Assembly (NCBI GenBank): GCA_965263035.1
Contig: OZ253580.1
Span: 3,360,001-3,424,000, forward strand
Origin: Acidobacteriota bacterium
Lineage (GTDB): Bacteria; Acidobacteriota; UBA6911; RPQK01; JAJDTT01
DNA: 64,000 bases
Direction: 5' to 3'
Shown here: in pieces, positions 1 to 49,078 of the stretch
Layout of the letters: every line of letters starts with the position of its first letter
How positions within the stretch are numbered: position 1 is the first letter of the stretch
Notes under the pieces: model-generated
Database searches by the model: none
Seen by the model: the letters and a program-made list of their open reading frames with translations, nothing else
Told to the model about the DNA's origin: nothing
Made by a program: the position numbers and the translations under genes

Positions 1-1018
1 GGCGAACGACAAGGGTGTGTTTGCCGGAGCGCCGGGTCACGGGGGCGACCCCGCACAGACAACGCAAGGCGGCGTAATCTCTGCGGCGCAACGGATCGGA
101 GGCTTCCGAGAGCAGGGTGGCGAGGACGATTCGGCCGACCCCGGGCAGGGAGGCGAGGATCGCCACATCCCGCCTCGGTCCTGGGGACCCCGGCGCCGAC
201 TCGCACCGCTGGTCCCAAGCCCGGATCAGACGCTCGACCTGACGACCGGTGTCCTTGAGCTGGCTCTGCACCAGGGCGAGGCGCTCCGCGAGGCTGGCGA
301 CGTGAGCCACCGCCACCTCGGTGGTGCCGGCGGCGACGGGGAAGGCCGGAACCCGCAAGCGACGCAGGACTTCGCGGGCGTCGATTCGCCGGATCCGATG
401 GTCTTTCAACACCTTGGCGACCCGGCTCGGGCGCAGCTTCTGGGCGTCGTCCGGCGTCGGGGCCAGCTTCCACACTTGCAGCACCCAGGGCTCGGCGAGA
501 TTCTCGCTGAGGTCCAGGAACTGCGGATAGTAGCGCCAGAGTTGATCGCGGAGGCGGTTGAGAAGCCGGGTCCGCTCGCGGGTCAACTGCTCACCCAGTC
601 GTGAGGACTCGCGCAGCTGGATCACCTCAGAAGCGACGGGTTTGAGACGGCGCAAGCGATGGCCGTCGGTTCTCAGCGCGTCGGCCAGCACCCGGGCATC
701 GCGGCGGTCATCCTTGGCTCCGGCCGGCGAGAAGCGGTCGCGGAATCGATCCAGCTGCGTCGGATTGATGGCATAGACGGCAAAACGCCGCTCCATCAGG
801 AAATCCACCACCGGACCGTGGTTCACTTCAATCGCCACCGAGACGGCCTGTGCACTCGTTCCCGTCTGCTGCAGAATCCAGTCGGCCATCTGGGCCAGGC
901 CCGAACCGCTGTGCGGGAAGCTCCGCTGTCCCCGACAGGTGCCTTGCGCGTCCAGCACGCAGACTTGGTGCGCCTGGGACGCCCAATCGACTCCCACAAA
1001 CCATTGACTCTGTTTCAT
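1..1018 (-). CDS. IS110-family DEDD recombinase/transposase (3' end runs off the window)
   Basis: Not in the ORF track; translated by hand from the ATG at 1018 (GGAGG RBS upstream): MKQSQWFVGVDWASQAHQV...AIEVNHG...AKDDRRDA (DEDD RuvC-like), then ILASLPGVGRIV...CGVAPVTRRSGK (Tnp_20 domain with SG motif). Frame consistent at both ends, open to the window edge. Confidence 0.95.
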   Translation of the reverse strand, partial: MKQSQWFVGVDWASQAHQVCVLDAQGTCRGQRSFPHSGSGLAQMADWILQQTGTSAQAVSVAIEVNHGPVVDFLMERRFAVYAINPTQLDRFRDRFSPAGAKDDRRDARVLADALRTDGHRLRRLKPVASEVIQLRESSRLGEQLTRERTRLLNRLRDQLWRYYPQFLDLSENLAEPWVLQVWKLAPTPDDAQKLRPSRVAKVLKDHRIRRIDAREVLRRLRVPAFPVAAGTTEVAVAHVASLAERLALVQSQLKDTGRQVERLIRAWDQRCESAPGSPGPRRDVAILASLPGVGRIVLATLLSEASDPLRRRDYAALRCLCGVAPVTRRSGKHTLVVR

Positions 1019-1044
1019 CCCGACCCTCCCAGTGTTTAAATGGA

Positions 1045-1225
1045 CGTCGGGCCGCCGCGATTCGGATCGGTTCCTGTACTGGTGCTCAGAGGCGCCAACT
1101 TCCCACCGGGTCTCCATCGCGGCTACCGGCCGGGGCACGAATCCCCTCCAGGTGCTCCGAGGGCACAGGGACATTAGGGTCGCTCCCGGCCAGGTGGCCC
1201 TCTTCACCCACCGTGGGTGAAGTCC
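1045..1225 (-). ncRNA. Putative IS110 bridge RNA (5' hairpin, target-binding loop, donor-binding loop)
   Basis: Minus strand: hairpin CTTCACCCA-CGG-TGGGTGAAG (1202-1222). Stem GGCCGGG/CCCGGCC encloses an internal loop AATGTCCC...GTGC/GCAC...GGAGGG. Stem GCCGCGAT/ATCGCGGC (1116-1123/1054-1061) encloses an internal loop GGGAAGT...GTACAGG. Ends are approximate. Confidence 0.8.
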
Positions 1226-1251
1226 CTTAAAGGGTGCTCGTGAAGGGTACA

Positions 1252-1325
1252 GGGACATTTTTGTCCCCCATTCTTTCTTGCCCAAACGTCAATGGGAGTT
1301 CGGCGGTTAGAAATCGCCGCTCCCA
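1252..1325. repeat. Inverted REP doublet; the left REP is truncated by the IS110 insertion
   Basis: GGGACA-TTTT-TGTCCC at 1252-1267 resembles the intact REP at 47754-47776 but lacks its GGAG. An inverted GGGAGCGGCGATTTCTAACCGCCG lies at 1301-1324. Confidence 0.7.
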
Positions 1326-1404
1326 ACTCGAAGGGCTCGGGGCAGACGTCTGGAACGGTACTTGGCGTTTCCGATAGACTACCCGCTGAACCCAGGCGCC
1401 TCCC

Positions 1405-2229
1405 ATGCCGGCTCCGAAACTCGAATTCAGGAAAGTGACCGGTCATTGCGGCGCCGAAGTGCACGGCATCGACCTTGCCCGGCCGCTCGGCGCGGAGGTG
1501 GTGGACGTTCTCTCCAACGCACTGGCCGAACACTGCGTCCTCTTCTTCCACGAACAGTCCATGACTCCGGCCCAGCAGAAGGCGCTGGGCCGCCATTTCG
1601 GTGAATTGCACATTCATCCGGCGTGGCCCCGGTTGGTCGACGGCCATCCGGAAGTCATGGAAATCTACGCCGACGAGAACACCCGCCGGATCGCCGGGGA
1701 AGACTGGCATTCGGATGTCTCCTGCGACCGGGAGCCGCCGCTGGGGACGATCCTGCAGATGCTGGAGGTGCCGCCGGTAGGGGGCGATACCCTGTTCGCC
1801 AACATGTACGCGGCCTACGAGTCACTGTCGACGCCGATGCGGCGTTTGCTGGACGGAATGACCGCGATCCACGATGGAGAGTATGTCTACCGGGGCCGTT
1901 ACGATGGCGCCGACGATGAGGGGAAGACCTTCCCCAGATCGGAGCATCCCGTCGGCCGGACCCATCCGGTGAGCGGACGCAAGGCGCTCTTCGTCAACCG
2001 CCTCTTCACGACCCGTATCGTTCAGCTCTCGAAGCGGGAGAGCGACGCGGTCCTCGGTTTTTTGGTGGAGCACGCCGCGAGCCCCATGTTCCAGTGCCGG
2101 TTCCGCTGGCGTCCCGGATCGGTGGCGTTCTGGGACAACCGCTGCGCCCAGCACTACGCCCTGTGGGACTATTATCCGAACCGGCGCCGCGGGTTGCGCG
2201 TCACCATCAAGGGCGATCGGCCGCGTTAA
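1405..2229 (+). CDS. tauD: TauD/TfdA family Fe(II)/2-oxoglutarate dioxygenase (taurine dioxygenase-like)
   Basis: GAEVHGIDL, WHSD (HxD), GGDTLFANMYAAYE, HPVSGRKALFVN, FWDNRCAQHYA. Confidence 0.88.
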   Translation: MPAPKLEFRKVTGHCGAEVHGIDLARPLGAEVVDVLSNALAEHCVLFFHEQSMTPAQQKALGRHFGELHIHPAWPRLVDGHPEVMEIYADENTRRIAGEDWHSDVSCDREPPLGTILQMLEVPPVGGDTLFANMYAAYESLSTPMRRLLDGMTAIHDGEYVYRGRYDGADDEGKTFPRSEHPVGRTHPVSGRKALFVNRLFTTRIVQLSKRESDAVLGFLVEHAASPMFQCRFRWRPGSVAFWDNRCAQHYALWDYYPNRRRGLRVTIKGDRPR

Positions 2230-46677: not shown

Positions 46678-47676
46678 TCAAAATATCGCGATTGGATTCA
46701 TGGGAGAACCCGTCGCCCCCTCCACCGGAATCGGAGCCGTGCTCAGGAGAAACTCCCAGCGTTGGCGTTCCGCCGCCGCCTGGCTCACGGCCTCCAGGTC
46801 GCAACTGTCGAAGATATGAACTCCCATCGCGATCAGGACCAGCTGATGGATCGGATGGGTGATCCCTTCCACCAGGGAAGGATGGACGTCGCTGGCGGCT
46901 TCACTTCCCAGCATCGCCACGTCCCGCTCCTTCAGCCACTTGGCGCAGGAGGCGTGGAGGCCGGACGAGGCCTTCGTCACGTCCCAGGGACCGAGCGCCT
47001 CCCGCCGGGCCCAGCGGCCGGTCCGGATAAAGACGACGTCCCCACTCGAAACCCTGAATCCCGCCTTCTTCTCCCAAGCTTCCAGGTCTTCGGGAAAGAT
47101 GGGAGTCCCGGGTTCCAGGTAGGGCACTCCCTTCAGTTTCGGGATGTCGAACAGGACACCGCGCGTGAAGATGCCGTTCTTGAGCTTGTGAATGTCCAGT
47201 TGCCGGGCGCCTTCCCCGGTCACCTCCTCTTGGGAGTAACCGTTGTACATCTTGCCCTGGTAGAACATGTGGCACAGGGCATCCAGATGAGTGTGCGCGT
47301 AACCGTGGAAGGAAACCGAAAGTGTATCGACGGCGTACTGGGCGTCTTCGTCGAGCCCGGTCATGGTCATGACATGCTGATAGGGAGAGGAATTATCGAT
47401 GGATTTCTCCTTGGCAGCGTCCCGCGACAAGGACACGGTGAAGCCGTCCTTGACCAGAGCGGCCGCCTGCCTCCGCTTTTCAGGAGTAATCAGGTTGAGG
47501 GCGCCCAACTGATCGTCCGGGCCCCAGCGGCCCCAGTTGGAAAGCTCCTTCATCCAGCGGTCGACGTCTTCGTTGGTGCGGGGATATCTTGGTTGAGCCT
47601 GAGGCTCCGGGGACAGACAGTGGATTAGGAACGGAAGCAGAATACCGGCAAGAAGAATGACTCGGAACGTAGGCAC
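46678..47676 (-). CDS. Secreted cyclase family (kynurenine formamidase-like) metal hydrolase
   Basis: SNWGRWGPDDQLGALN; HTHLDALCH; RGVLFD; GATGSPMNPIA; GTG start with GAGGGG RBS. Confidence 0.88.
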   Translation of the reverse strand: MPTFRVILLAGILLPFLIHCLSPEPQAQPRYPRTNEDVDRWMKELSNWGRWGPDDQLGALNLITPEKRRQAAALVKDGFTVSLSRDAAKEKSIDNSSPYQHVMTMTGLDEDAQYAVDTLSVSFHGYAHTHLDALCHMFYQGKMYNGYSQEEVTGEGARQLDIHKLKNGIFTRGVLFDIPKLKGVPYLEPGTPIFPEDLEAWEKKAGFRVSSGDVVFIRTGRWARREALGPWDVTKASSGLHASCAKWLKERDVAMLGSEAASDVHPSLVEGITHPIHQLVLIAMGVHIFDSCDLEAVSQAAAERQRWEFLLSTAPIPVEGATGSPMNPIAIF

Positions 47677-47752
47677 GGTGTTCCCCTCGGACTCGGAATC
47701 AGACGATGGACACATTATTACTCCCAGAACCGTCCGGTTCAAACCGGTCGAC

Positions 47753-47776
47753 AGGAGGGGACATTCTTGTCCCCCA
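47753..47776 (+). repeat. GGAG-type REP; unoccupied predicted IS110 target
   Basis: AGGAG-GGGACA-TTCT-TGTCCC-CCA; minus strand 47765-47754 reads AATGTC-CC-CTCC. Confidence 0.75.
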
Positions 47777-47835: not shown

Positions 47836-48888
47836 CTACGCCAGCGTATTGGTCCAACCGATCAGAAACATGGCCGCAGACAAAATCAGGATAGAGATCC
47901 CCATCACGGCCATGGACTTCCTCGAGGCGCCGGTCCACTCGCCACTCAACGACCCCCAGACGGTGGCGGCGATGATCGACATGGCCGAGGCCATGGGCCA
48001 GCCGATGACTTCTCGAAGGTCACCCAGCATGGAGCCTCCAATGCCGTACGTGACGACGCCGGAGACCCAAAGTATCCCCATGGCCGCACCCACGCCGTAG
48101 TGAAACGGCTGCCCCCGGAAAATGTGCCAGCTCCTCCCCTTGAAGATCAGGTAGACGCAGTAGCCCGCGTTCACCAGGAAACCTGCGGACAAGGCCACGA
48201 CCCAGATGACGTTCGAGGCCATCGAGGGCGAAGTCCCAAGCAGGACGGCCTGATCGGCCAGCTTGATCCCATAGGCGAAGCTCAGATTCAGCATGGGTGA
48301 GAGTATCCCCGACAGGGCGGCCACCAGCAGTCCCAGGAACAACGGCGCCGACCCCGTGGATTCTTTGGCCGGGGTCTCGGAAATCTCCTCCGGATTCCGG
48401 GCGCGTCCGGGGGATTCTTCTCTCAACTTTCCCGCCCAGGCGGAGAGCAGGACACCGACGACGACCAGCAGGACTCCGGCGCAGATCACCATGCCCTTGA
48501 CCGTCAGAAATTCGTCCCAGTGGAGCAGAACGAACGGCGCCATCGTGCCGACGGCCGCGGTCAGGCCCATGACGATGGCGTAGCTCAGCGCCAAGCCGAC
48601 CATCTTTAGTGCCAATCCGTAGAGGACGGACCCCACTCCCCACCCCATGCCGAACAGGAAGACCAGAAGCAGGTCGCGGACTTCGGCCGCCGCCAGGACG
48701 GCAAACAGAGACTCGATGGTGAGAAAACCGAGGAGCCAGGGAATCAAAATCATTGCAGTCACGGAAAAAAGAAGCCAGATATGCTCCCATTTCCAGCTGC
48801 GCGTGAACTTGAGTCCCAATCCAAAGGCGGAATTGGCCGTAGATCCCGTCAGGATCACCAGAATTCCGAGGCCGAAACCGGTTTCCAT
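47836..48888 (-). CDS. L-rhamnose/proton symporter RhaT family transporter
   Basis: About 10 TM helices; RSWKWEHIW, GMGWGVGSVLYG, AGFLVNAGYC, IGWP, WGSLSGEW. Confidence 0.85.
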   Translation of the reverse strand: METGFGLGILVILTGSTANSAFGLGLKFTRSWKWEHIWLLFSVTAMILIPWLLGFLTIESLFAVLAAAEVRDLLLVFLFGMGWGVGSVLYGLALKMVGLALSYAIVMGLTAAVGTMAPFVLLHWDEFLTVKGMVICAGVLLVVVGVLLSAWAGKLREESPGRARNPEEISETPAKESTGSAPLFLGLLVAALSGILSPMLNLSFAYGIKLADQAVLLGTSPSMASNVIWVVALSAGFLVNAGYCVYLIFKGRSWHIFRGQPFHYGVGAAMGILWVSGVVTYGIGGSMLGDLREVIGWPMASAMSIIAATVWGSLSGEWTGASRKSMAVMGISILILSAAMFLIGWTNTLA

Positions 48889-49078
48889 GGGCAAGTCTCC
48901 CTTCCGGAAACTACATATCCCAAATCACAATTTAAAGAGGCGAGAGGTTGCGAAATCCTAACACGCGCGCAGGGGGACGACGGCATGTCGATACCCTCAA
49001 GGGCCGACTACGATAGTGGACAATCCAGCCGCCGTTGCCGGATCATGGGTCGTCCCGTCGGGTTTGACTGGAGGTGAC

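What the first reader, a model, noticed from the sequence alone, without database searches (positions are those of the whole stretch)
47753..47776. Empty IS110 target in the same window: the element is aimed at one host REP subfamily
Seen: GGAG-GGGACATTCTTGTCCCCCA at 47754 is the intact form of the sequence abutting the IS110 (GGGACATTTTTGTCCCCCA, 1252-1270), and its 12 nt match both target guides exactly. The insertion point separates GGAG from the hairpin. Other GGAG REPs here (e.g. GGAGGGGCGATTTCC) fit the right guide but not the left. Established: IS621 targets E. coli REPs. Inference: an independent case of safe-harbour REP targeting in a distant phylum.
Basis: partly seen in the sequence, partly recalled or inferred. 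Interest (0 to 1): 0.75.

Follow-up and report, generated by a model that had tools for sequence, protein, structure and literature searches.

The report
RNA-guided jumping gene targets REP hairpins
An IS110-type insertion sequence in an Acidobacteriota genome uses a bridge RNA to insert at one fixed point in the host's small repeated hairpins (REPs), but the "empty target" flagged at 47754 is one base shorter than the site the element really uses.

Summary
This is an IS110-family element whose non-coding left end encodes a bridge RNA aimed at a GGAG-headed REP family.

[quoted passage not shown] So do seven related copies or remnants in congeners. The left target guide changes with the flank (six states), and the right guide changes once, with its flank.

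The specific claim is not exact. An orthologous empty site in a congener (both flanks 100% identical) reads GGAGGGGGACATT, with five G. The true target is therefore AATGTC|CC|CCTCC, and crossover is at a CC core inside the C-run, not between GGAG and the hairpin. The site at 47754 has four G/C. It is a near-cognate REP: one base deleted, or 3 mismatches without an indel. It is unoccupied here and in five congeners.

Two exact vacant sites exist elsewhere in the genome, outside the window. A second pair of copies carries a different guide aimed at a different REP subfamily.

REP targeting by bridge-RNA IS110 elements is already established in Proteobacteria. This is a new member of that kind in a new phylum.

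The parts
1..1018 (-). IS110-family transposase gene, first 339 of 415 codons. The rest of the element lies beyond the window's left edge (genome copy c1, G000:C1:3359524-3361253).
   Evidence: PF01548 (E 2e-36) and PF02371 (E 5e-11). NF033542 'IS110 family RNA-guided transposase', 188.5 bits against a cut-off of 140. Full ORF of 415 aa.
1019..1251 (-). Non-coding left end (233 nt) encoding the candidate bridge RNA: a 5' stem-loop, a target-binding loop and a donor-binding loop.
   Evidence: Two-internal-loop consensus fold on 29 diverse relatives. 94.9% of cells paired, 20 of 29 pairs with compensatory changes, 0 of 500 shuffles as high, slid controls 31-46%.
1168..1175 (-). Left target guide (LTG), AATGTCCC. 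It has the same sense as the left target plus core.
   Evidence: Matches the left flank plus core of c1 and c2 over 8 nt. The homologous columns read AAAGCCGC, AAAGTCGC, ACAGTCCCC, AAAGTCCCC and AAAACCGC in other copies, each like its own flank.
1143..1149 (-). Right target guide (RTG), GGAGGGG. It is the reverse complement of core plus right target, CC+CCTCC.
   Evidence: All 9 complete right junctions in the genus read GGGAAGT|CCCCTCC. The G004 remnant has RTG GGAGCGG and ends ...GT|CCGCTCC. Relatives at ~60% identity: 6 of 14 unique pairs match 7/7 and 4 more match 6/7.
1141..1142 (-). Handshake guide, AT (AC in c3/c4). It is complementary to the last two bases (GT) of the element's right end.
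   Evidence: Position directly 3' of the RTG, as in IS621. Sequences. Function is inferred.
1098..1104 (-). Left donor guide, GGGAAGT. It is identical to the last 7 nt of the right end.
1073..1080 (-). Right donor guide, AGTACAGG. It is the reverse complement of core plus left-end start (CCTGTAC).
1244..1249 (-). -10-like hexamer TACCCT. It pairs with a -35 (TTGACA) in the right end only when the ends are joined.
   Evidence: A script joined RE+core+LE. It found TTGACA-17 nt-TACCCT in c1-c3 and TTGAAG in c4.
1252..1253 (.). Core dinucleotide (CC in element orientation), present at both junctions and once in the empty site.
   Evidence: Empty site in G007 compared with the occupied site in G000.
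1254..1269 (.). Left part of the disrupted REP hairpin (GACATTTTTGTCCCCC on the + strand). This is the left target t1-t7 plus the REP's 5' arm.
47754..47776 (+). Intact REP hairpin of the same subfamily with a 4-G run. It is a near-cognate, unoccupied site in the 93-nt gap between a RhaT-family gene and a cyclase-family gene.
   Evidence: Orthologous positions in congeners.

Best explanation
The window's left edge cuts through copy c1 of a 1723-bp IS110-family insertion sequence (1721 bp plus one CC core). Its 233-nt left end encodes a bridge RNA with two internal loops.

[quoted passage not shown] Together they specify AATGTC|CC|CCTCC. That sequence is the 3' arm and tail of one variant (five C) of a GGAG-headed REP hairpin.

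The donor-binding loop (GGGAAGT and AGTACAGG) reads the element's own joined ends. Recombination at the CC core inserts the element precisely, with no duplication beyond the shared core.

The REP at 47754 belongs to the same REP subfamily but has only four C. On it the two guides fall out of register by one base, so it is a near-cognate site and probably a poor target. Sister copies c3/c4 carry a different left guide (AAAGCCG) and sit in a different REP variant. The element family therefore tracks REP subfamilies by guide changes.

SHOWN: the anatomy, the precise junctions, guide-flank co-variation and RNA scaffold co-variation. INFERRED: that the RNA is made and guides recombination, and that the 4-C site is disfavoured.
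For: FAMILY. Pfam PF01548 and PF02371. NF033542 above its cut-off.

COPIES. Four full copies, all with intact 415-aa ORFs. Flanks are unrelated beyond the REP. c1 and c2 are 99.4% identical.

PRECISE TARGET. G007 has both c1 flanks at 100% identity, 7 nt apart. This gives ...TA|GGAGGGG|GACATTTTT..., that is AAAAATGTC-CC-CCTCC-TA in element orientation. It equals left junction plus right junction minus one CC.

GUIDE-FLANK CO-VARIATION IN THE GENUS, 12 ELEMENTS. 10 of 12 have the left guide identical to the flank over t2-t8, and 2 of 12 have one mismatch. There are six guide states. The right guide is GGAGGGG with CCCCTCC in 11 elements and GGAGCGG with CCGCTCC in 1.

WIDER FAMILY (~60% aa identity). 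Own-flank longest common string averages 6.25 nt against 3.37 nt for other elements' flanks, with 37 of 84 parsed. Right-guide prediction of the right flank: 40 of 80 loci parsed and 14 unique pairs. Of these, 6 are perfect and 4 are 6/7. Own R5 matches average 3.7 against 1.8 for mismatched pairs.

RNA SCAFFOLD. 94.9% paired, 20 of 29 pairs compensatory, 0 of 500 shuffles as high, slid controls 31-46%.

JUNCTION PROMOTER. TTGACA-17-TACCCT forms only across joined ends.

HANDSHAKE BASES. AT/AC are complementary to the donor's GT, not to the target.

REP IDENTITY. 1000 GGAG-headed perfect hairpins against 464 in a reversed-genome control. Exact 23-24-mers recur up to 38 times. A RAYT-like gene is flanked by REP doublets.

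SITE CENSUS. Exact 13-mer: 2 vacant plus 2 occupied. The window site is 3 mismatches away without an indel. Five 4-C REP sites and 22 6-C sites are all unoccupied.
Against: (1) In the alignment, the c1/c2 left guide sits one column 5' of where G001, c3/c4 and L115 have theirs. The last core base pairs at column 35 instead of 36. Read in the G001 register, c1/c2 would be in frame for the abundant 6-C REP, yet both insertions are in 5-C sites. I cannot explain this shift.

(2) Only one insertion (c1) has a verified empty site. The 5-C state for c2 rests on junction arithmetic. In G007 the intergenic region that corresponds loosely to the c2 locus holds a 4-C REP. Flanks there are only 88% identical and not colinear.

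(3) No evidence that the RNA is expressed. Rfam 15 gave no bridge-RNA match.

(4) No circle junction or new insertion was seen. The runs available are contigs.

(5) Guide position t1 is mismatched in c1/c2. The second core position is mismatched in the c3-type left guide.

(6) My family-wide parses missed 47 of 84 and 40 of 80 loci, because the anchors were simple patterns.

(7) That the 4-C site is a poor target is extrapolated from IS621 mismatch data. It was not tested for this element.
Confidence: 0.85

Rival explanations
1. One reading: the 4-G site at 47754 is the exact intact target, the element inserts between GGAG and the hairpin, and the 12 nt match both guides exactly.
For: Literal string matches exist: AATGTCCC, and the reverse complement of GGAGGGGA, both lie in AATGTCCCCTCC. 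The 12-mer is enriched, 7 observed against 0.84 expected. G007 has a 4-C REP in the region loosely corresponding to the c2 locus.
Against: The empty site with 100% identical flanks has five G. Junction arithmetic gives 5 for both c1 and c2 (3 C on the left, 4 C on the right, minus the 2-nt core). With the right end ending in GGGAAGT, as fixed by non-homopolymer relatives and by the G004 remnant, a 4-C site cannot give the observed junctions. The extra matched A is the handshake position. In IS621, pairing of that position with the cognate target blocks strand exchange. None of the five 4-C REP sites is occupied.
Confidence: 0.06
2. The transposase recognises the REP hairpin by protein-DNA contacts alone. 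The matching strings in the left end are left-overs of earlier recombination with REPs, not guides.
For: The ISPpu10 preprint reports that the target stem-loop itself adds specificity (abstract and section 7 read). Here too the REP's 5' arm is complementary to the left target.
Against: The guide segments sit at fixed positions in a scaffold whose stems co-vary. They change with the flank in six states for the left guide and two for the right, within one genus. They also predict non-repeat right flanks in distant relatives. The family model is NCBI's 'RNA-guided transposase'.
Confidence: 0.04
3. The rare 4-C and 5-C REP variants are by-products of the element itself, for example mis-registered excision within the C-run. 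On this view 47754 is a footprint rather than a target.
For: The canonical REP of this subfamily has 6 C (22 copies with AATGT). Variants with 3, 4 and 5 C are rare: 3, 7 and 2. The 4-C sites keep a 5-G left arm, so only the 3' arm is shortened. Two remnants have internal deletions ending exactly at GT|CC.
Against: Homopolymer length changes arise readily by replication slippage. The orthologous REP varies in run length between congeners that have no element there. There is no direct evidence of excision at any of these sites. IS110 excision is described as scarless.
Confidence: 0.05

Closest known systems
IS621 of Escherichia coli (IS110 family, bridge RNA)
   Same: DEDD plus Tnp-domain recombinase. 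Bridge RNA in the left end with target- and donor-binding loops. Left guide pairs with the bottom strand and right guide with the top strand. Both include a 2-nt core, and handshake bases lie 3' of the right guide. Natural targets are REP elements (passages read). The geometry found here, 7+2+5, is the same as the 14 numbered target positions of IS621.
   Different: The core is CC rather than CT. The natural right guide is 7 nt (core plus 5) rather than 4. The recombinase is 415 aa against 326 aa. The host is Acidobacteriota and the REP family is unrelated (GGAG head). Rfam 15 finds no matching RNA family. Nothing here has been tested biochemically.
ISPpu10 of Pseudomonas putida (IS110 family)
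   Same: All insertions fall in copies of one REP sequence whose 5' part folds back on the left target as a stem-loop. Targets are intergenic (abstract and section 7 read). Here the REP's 5' arm GGGGGAC is likewise complementary to the left target plus core, GTCCCCC.
   Different: Different phylum, different core, different REP. A role for the stem-loop in recognition was not tested here.
ISPa11, ISPpu9, ISRm19 (IS110-family elements with 100% REP association; Tobes & Pareja 2006)
   Same: [quoted passage not shown] These are 'type 1 associations' with ratios 6/6, 7/7 and 4/4 (passages and table text read).
   Different: All are in Proteobacteria, and 'Acidobacteri' has 0 occurrences in that paper. 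That paper predates bridge RNAs, so it has no guide analysis.

Membership tests
IS110 family, bridge-RNA-guided recombinase | [quoted passage not shown] | tested here: met
   (E 2e-36 and 5e-11). NF033542, 188.5 bits against a cut-off of 140.
IS110 family, bridge-RNA-guided recombinase | Precise insertion at a short core shared by donor and target, with no terminal inverted repeats and no duplication beyond the core | tested here: met
   Empty site (G007) against occupied site (G000) differs by exactly the element plus one CC.
IS110 family, bridge-RNA-guided recombinase | Structured non-coding RNA in the left end with two internal loops | tested here: met
   29 pairs in 5 helices, 94.9% paired, 20 compensatory, 0 of 500 shuffles as high. 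The structure was derived from the same alignment, which favours 'cells paired'. The compensatory counts against the slid controls are the stronger measure.
IS110 family, bridge-RNA-guided recombinase | Target-binding loop guides match left and right target and co-vary with them | tested here: met
   (genus: 12 elements, 6 left-guide states, 2 right-guide states). (wider family, partial parses).
IS110 family, bridge-RNA-guided recombinase | Donor-binding loop guides match the element's own joined ends | tested here: met
   GGGAAGT equals the last 7 nt of the right end. AGTACAGG is the reverse complement of CCTGTAC plus 1. No variation within the genus, so identity only, no co-variation.
IS110 family, bridge-RNA-guided recombinase | Circular intermediate whose junction forms a promoter for the RNA | tested here: inconclusive
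   The promoter motif TTGACA-17-TACCCT forms across joined ends. The circle itself was not seen: only contigs were available and no such joint appeared.
IS110 family, bridge-RNA-guided recombinase | The RNA is expressed, binds the recombinase and directs recombination | not testable with these tools
   RNA runs are stored as contigs and none covers the left end.
REP / REPIN-RAYT system | Short imperfect palindrome with a conserved head, present in many copies | tested here: met
   1000 GGAG-headed perfect hairpins against 464 in a reversed-genome control. Exact 23-24-mers occur 38, 35, 27 and 23 times.
REP / REPIN-RAYT system | Extragenic location | tested here: inconclusive
   Checked only for two sites. 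47754 lies between RhaT-family and cyclase-family genes. The c1 site lies 151 nt upstream of a TauD-family gene. No genome-wide gene calls were made.
REP / REPIN-RAYT system | A cognate Y1 (RAYT) transposase gene flanked by REPs | tested here: met
   Y1_Tnp over its cut-off. NF047646 'REP-associated tyrosine transposase', 75.6 bits, just under its cut-off of 80 because the gene is split into two ORFs. REP doublets on both sides.
Exact cognate target of copies c1/c2 (claim for site 47754) | Identity to a verified pre-insertion site | tested here: not met
   The verified site has 5 C/G and 47754 has 4.
Exact cognate target of copies c1/c2 (claim for site 47754) | Left and right guide strings tile the site with exactly the 2-nt core shared | tested here: not met
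   The overlap is 3 nt on the 4-C site, 2 nt on the 5-C site and 1 nt on the 6-C site (from the sequences). Without an indel the window site is 3 mismatches from the 13-mer.

The most novel reading that the evidence does not exclude
Within one Acidobacteriota genus, sister lineages of a single IS110 element have re-tuned their bridge RNAs: six left-guide states and two right-guide states. They thereby divide the host's REP subfamilies among themselves, and each lineage in this genome has filled half of its exact sites (2 of 4). In addition, the left guide's register relative to the RNA scaffold differs by one nucleotide between lineages. This would mean the guide-core geometry of bridge RNAs is more flexible than the IS621 model suggests. 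It would also mean that homopolymer run length in the target acts as a specificity digit.
Probability: 0.3. Interest if true: 0.55.

Novelty: new member of a known kind. Interest (0 to 1): 0.35.

Why it matters
It extends bridge-RNA-guided REP targeting from Proteobacteria to Acidobacteriota. It also gives a compact natural experiment: paralogous, intact elements in one genome whose guides differ and whose insertion sites differ in the same way, with a verified empty site. That is useful as an independent check of the guide rules and as a source of a CC-core recombinase with a 7-nt natural right guide. It does not change the current picture of how IS110 elements work.

Tried and rejected
RFAM. 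A scan of window 1-2000 at E up to 1 gave only a weak Scr2736 hit on the other strand, below its gathering score, and no bridge-RNA family.

READS. One search found 20 runs that hold the c1 locus, all stored as contigs. I laid 4 of them: X5, X9, X14 (DNA) and X15 (RNA). In all three DNA runs, contigs bridge both junctions without differences. No joint skips the element and no circle joint appears. So there is no empty-site allele and no sign of a subpopulation, which contigs could not show anyway. RNA contigs do not cover the left end, so this says nothing about expression.

ORTHOLOGOUS EMPTY SITES FOR C2 AND C3. Flanks in five congeners are 77-93% identical, and the intergenic parts are not colinear. 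No exact empty site could be read. G007 has a 4-C REP near the c2-equivalent place. Congeners have GTCGCCCCTCC-type REPs at the c3-equivalent place.

FIRST MODEL, REJECTED. I first placed the right end at GGGAAGTC with right target CTCC, which would have made the 4-C site cognate. I rejected it after seeing the c3/c4/remnant flanks, the G007 empty site and the non-homopolymer relatives. I also considered and rejected CT and GT as the core, because they do not fit all left junctions.

PATTERN-BASED PARSES OF THE 80 RELATED LOCI. One search parsed 37 of 84 and mis-set several junctions (rows with flank 'C'). mis-anchored the right guide in many rows. One search parsed 40 of 80 (23 without a right-guide anchor, 3 without a left-donor-guide anchor, 14 without a right end). 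For L115 it took the first of two candidate right ends, although the second matches 7/7.

CHANCE ESTIMATE. Both c1/c2 insertions fall in the 5-C class out of 4+5+22 sites, which gives 6/465 = 0.013. The classes were defined after seeing the data, so this is only indicative.

Supplementary files of the papers were not opened. Supplementary Table 1 and Data 2 of the Nature 2024 paper may list related elements or targets.

LITERATURE SEARCH. A search for 'Acidobacteriota' + 'IS110' + 'REP' returned 3 papers, none relevant by title or abstract start. I saw the 'half-match recombination' preprint only as a search listing.

Full report
OBSERVATION. Window 47754-47776 is GGAGGGGACATTCTTGTCCCCCA and 1252-1270 is GGGACATTTTTGTCCCCCA. 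The 12-mer GGAGGGGACATT occurs 7 times in the 6,198,070-bp genome against 0.84 expected from composition. Five of the 7 lie in REP hairpins and 2 do not. The site forms a hairpin. It lies in a 93-nt gap between a RhaT-family permease gene (47839-48894, minus strand) and a cyclase-family gene (46681-47742, minus strand).

THE ELEMENT. The ORF running off the window's left edge has the two IS110 domains. It passes NCBI's model 'IS110 family RNA-guided transposase' at 188.5 bits against a cut-off of 140. The window is G000:C1:3360001-3424000. BLAST of the region against the genome finds four full copies and one 173-nt left-end remnant:
- c1, the window copy
- c2, 99.4% identical to c1
- c3, 85% identical
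- c4, 84% identical
All four ORFs are intact at 415 aa. In element orientation every copy reads: left flank, CCTGTACCC ... GGGAAGTCCCCTCC, right flank. The flanks are unrelated beyond a REP hairpin on the left. Related copies at 83-86% identity occur in congeners: three in G001, three in G007 and a remnant in G004. The nearest public relatives of the transposase (81-82% aa) are titled Acidobacteriota MAGs.

THE TRUE TARGET. Congener G007 holds both c1 flanks at 100% identity (1025 and 976 nt), only 7 nt apart. The site reads ...ctttccta GGAGGGG gacatttttgtccccca.... In element orientation this is AAAAATGTC-CC-CCTCC-TA. The occupied site is AAAAATGTC-CC-TGTACCC...GGGAAGT-CC-CCTCC-TA. Insertion is therefore precise, at a CC core, and adds 1723 bp. 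The pre-insertion C-run has five C. The same count follows for c2 from its junctions (3 C left, 4 C right, minus 2). The site at 47754 has four. The crossover lies inside the run (GGAGG|GG|GACATT on the + strand), not between GGAG and the hairpin.

THE BRIDGE RNA. The 233-nt left end contains, in order (window coordinates):
- AATGTCCC (1168-1175)
- a small hairpin
- GGAGGGG followed by AT (1143-1149 and 1141-1142)
- GGGAAGT (1098-1104)
- a second small hairpin
- AGTACAGG (1073-1080)
By the published IS621 rules (passages read) these are the left target guide, the right target guide with handshake bases, the left donor guide and the right donor guide.

Three lines of evidence support this.

(a) Co-variation with flanks inside the genus.

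Element(s) | Left guide | Left flank and core
c1/c2 | AATGTCCC | AATGTC|CC
c3/c4 | AAAGCCGC | AAAGCCG|CC
G000 remnant | AAAGTCGC | AAAGTCG|CC
G001, three copies | ACAGTCCCC | ACAGTCC|CC
G007_b | AAAGTCCCC | AAAGTCC|CC
G004 remnant | AAAACCGC | AAACCG|CC

G007_a and G007_c each have one mismatch. In total, 10 of 12 elements are perfect over t2-t8. The right guide is GGAGGGG with right junction CCCCTCC in 11 elements. In the G004 remnant it is GGAGCGG, and that remnant ends ...GT|CCGCTCC.

(b) The same rules hold in relatives at about 60% aa identity from other orders and phyla. Where the right guide was located, it predicts the 7 nt after the right end. Examples are CCATTTG, CCCTTCC, CCTTGTC and CCTTTTC. 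Six of 14 unique pairs are perfect and four more are 6/7, with 40 of 80 loci parsed. Own left flanks share longer strings with the guide than other elements' flanks do: 6.25 against 3.37 nt, with 37 of 84 parsed.

(c) The scaffold co-varies. On 29 non-redundant left ends, five helices give two internal loops, each with an inner hairpin. 94.9% of cells are paired, against 31-46% when partners are slid. 20 of 29 pairs have compensatory changes, and 0 of 500 shuffles reach the observed values.

Two further points fit. Joining the right end, core and left end creates TTGACA-17 nt-TACCCT, with the -35 in the right end and the -10 in the left end. This is as described for the IS621 junction promoter. 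The handshake bases (AT or AC) are complementary to the last two bases of the right end (GT) and not to the target. That is the arrangement that favours strand exchange in IS621.

WHAT THE SITE AT 47754 IS. It is an intact REP of the same subfamily, but one base short. On the five-C site, the left-guide string (AATGTCCC) and the reverse complement of the right guide (CCCCTCC) share exactly the two core bases. On the four-C site they share three, and on the common six-C REP they share one. Without an indel, the window site is 3 mismatches from the 13-mer AATGTCCCCCTCC. In IS621, pairing of that position with the cognate target locks the complex before strand exchange. In IS621, single mismatches already reduce recombination strongly. 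I therefore expect 47754 to be a poor target, but this is an inference.

Empirical counts point the same way. None of the five 4-C REP sites and none of the 22 6-C sites is occupied, while 2 of the 4 five-C sites are. At the orthologous position, none of five congeners has the element. The REP there varies in run length (six G in G007), so the run is labile.

THE REP FAMILY. GGAG-headed perfect hairpins (stem of 6 or more, loop 4-8) number 1000, against 464 in a reversed-genome control. The commonest exact 23-24-mers occur 38, 35, 27 and 23 times. Twelve lie in the window. A Y1-transposase gene at genome 3477778-3478464 is split into two ORFs. Its C-terminal part scores 75.6 bits against 'REP-associated tyrosine transposase' (cut-off 80), and it is flanked on both sides by REP doublets. 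This is the RAYT/REPIN arrangement, so the label REP is justified.

Sites sharing the right half-site CC+CCTCC are dominated by other left halves: GAAATCG 51, AAAGTCG 33, GAAGTCG 22, AATGTCC 22 and GATGTCC 16.

PARTITION AMONG PARALOGUES. The c1/c2 guide has 2 vacant and 2 occupied exact sites. The c3/c4 guide (AAAGCCG) also has 2 vacant and 2 occupied. The remnant's guide (AAAGTCG) matches 33 sites. The c1 site is empty in G007. No element lies at the c2- and c3-equivalent places in G007. c1 and c2 differ by 0.6%, so these insertions are recent and the element is probably active.

COMPARISON AND NOVELTY. REP targeting by IS110 elements is long known: IS621, ISPa11, ISPpu9, ISPpu10 and ISRm19. 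It is explained by bridge RNAs, and a 5' stem-loop in the target has been analysed for ISPpu10. All these hosts are Proteobacteria. My one search for Acidobacteriota + IS110 + REP found nothing relevant. This is a new member of a known kind. It has a CC core and a 7-nt natural right guide, and it offers a neat within-genus series of retargeted guides.

OPEN POINTS.
- The c1/c2 left guide sits one alignment column 5' of that of G001, c3/c4 and L115, and I cannot explain this.
- Only one empty site is verified.
- Expression of the RNA, the circle and the behaviour of the 4-C site are untested.
- The family-wide counts rest on simple pattern anchors that missed about half of the loci.

Noticed in passing
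L144 (G005:C1:3444118-3447582), insert at about 547-1500; Rfam hit at 608-831: At the position orthologous to window 47754, congener G005 carries a ~954-nt insert inside the loop of the REP hairpin. The insert begins GTGCG and matches Rfam group II intron D1-D4-6 (167 bits, gathering score 49). The same REP family therefore also serves as a landing site for an apparently ORF-less group II intron.
   Followed up: partly
G000:C1:2558551-2558723 (L005/L025) and L009 (G004 remnant): Two independent left-end remnants have lost the rest of the element by an internal deletion. In each, the deletion's left breakpoint is a GT|CC inside the element (...CAGTGT|CC and ...GGGCGT|CC), and it is joined to the core plus right target. 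This mimics the natural right end, ...GGGAAGT|CC. It could be recombinase-mediated deletion at pseudo-sites, or 4-nt microhomology.
   Followed up: partly
G000:C1:3477687-3478480 (L138): A RAYT-like Y1 transposase gene is split into two ORFs (94 and 127 aa). It is bracketed by two REP doublets, each a GGAG...GGGGACATCC hairpin plus an inverted GGAGCGGGGGTT hairpin. A second Y1 hit at 2482924-2483100 has REPs about 800 nt away.
   Followed up: partly
L022 (G000 c4) compared with L007/L059 (G007_a), left flanks: c4 and G007_a look like the same inherited insertion, since their left flanks are near-identical. The REP stem differs at two paired positions: GGGCGGC...GCCG against GGGCGAC...GTCG. This is a compensatory double change, or conversion from the commoner REP subfamily. 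It leaves G007_a with one mismatch to its guide.
   Followed up: no
Alignment A1, columns 27-38: The left guide's last core-pairing base sits at column 35 in c1/c2, L075, L079 and L082. It sits at column 36 in G001, c3/c4 and L115. This is a one-nucleotide register difference relative to the inner hairpin.
   Followed up: partly
L015/L019 (G007_b, G007_c), left end: These two copies lack 18 nt near the left-end start. The deletion lies between two GTACCCTT repeats, so the left end begins CCTGTACCCTTTAGGGG. The guides and scaffold are intact.
   Followed up: no
Genome-wide, e.g. G000:C1:337156, 2265070, 3656457, 5411627 (listed): A string gcggctttttttagGATGTCCCGCTCCatcc recurs identically at 10 places listed. 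It is probably the end of another multi-copy element.
   Followed up: no
L069-L073, L082-L088, L106-L125 (relatives in Paracoccaceae, Amylibacter and Vicinamibacterales MAGs): Many of the ~60%-identity relatives also abut repeated hairpin-like flanks. One example is CTGCCCCGGTTTCCCC...GGGGAAACCGGGGCAG. REP-like targeting may therefore be common across this clade of IS110 elements.
   Followed up: no
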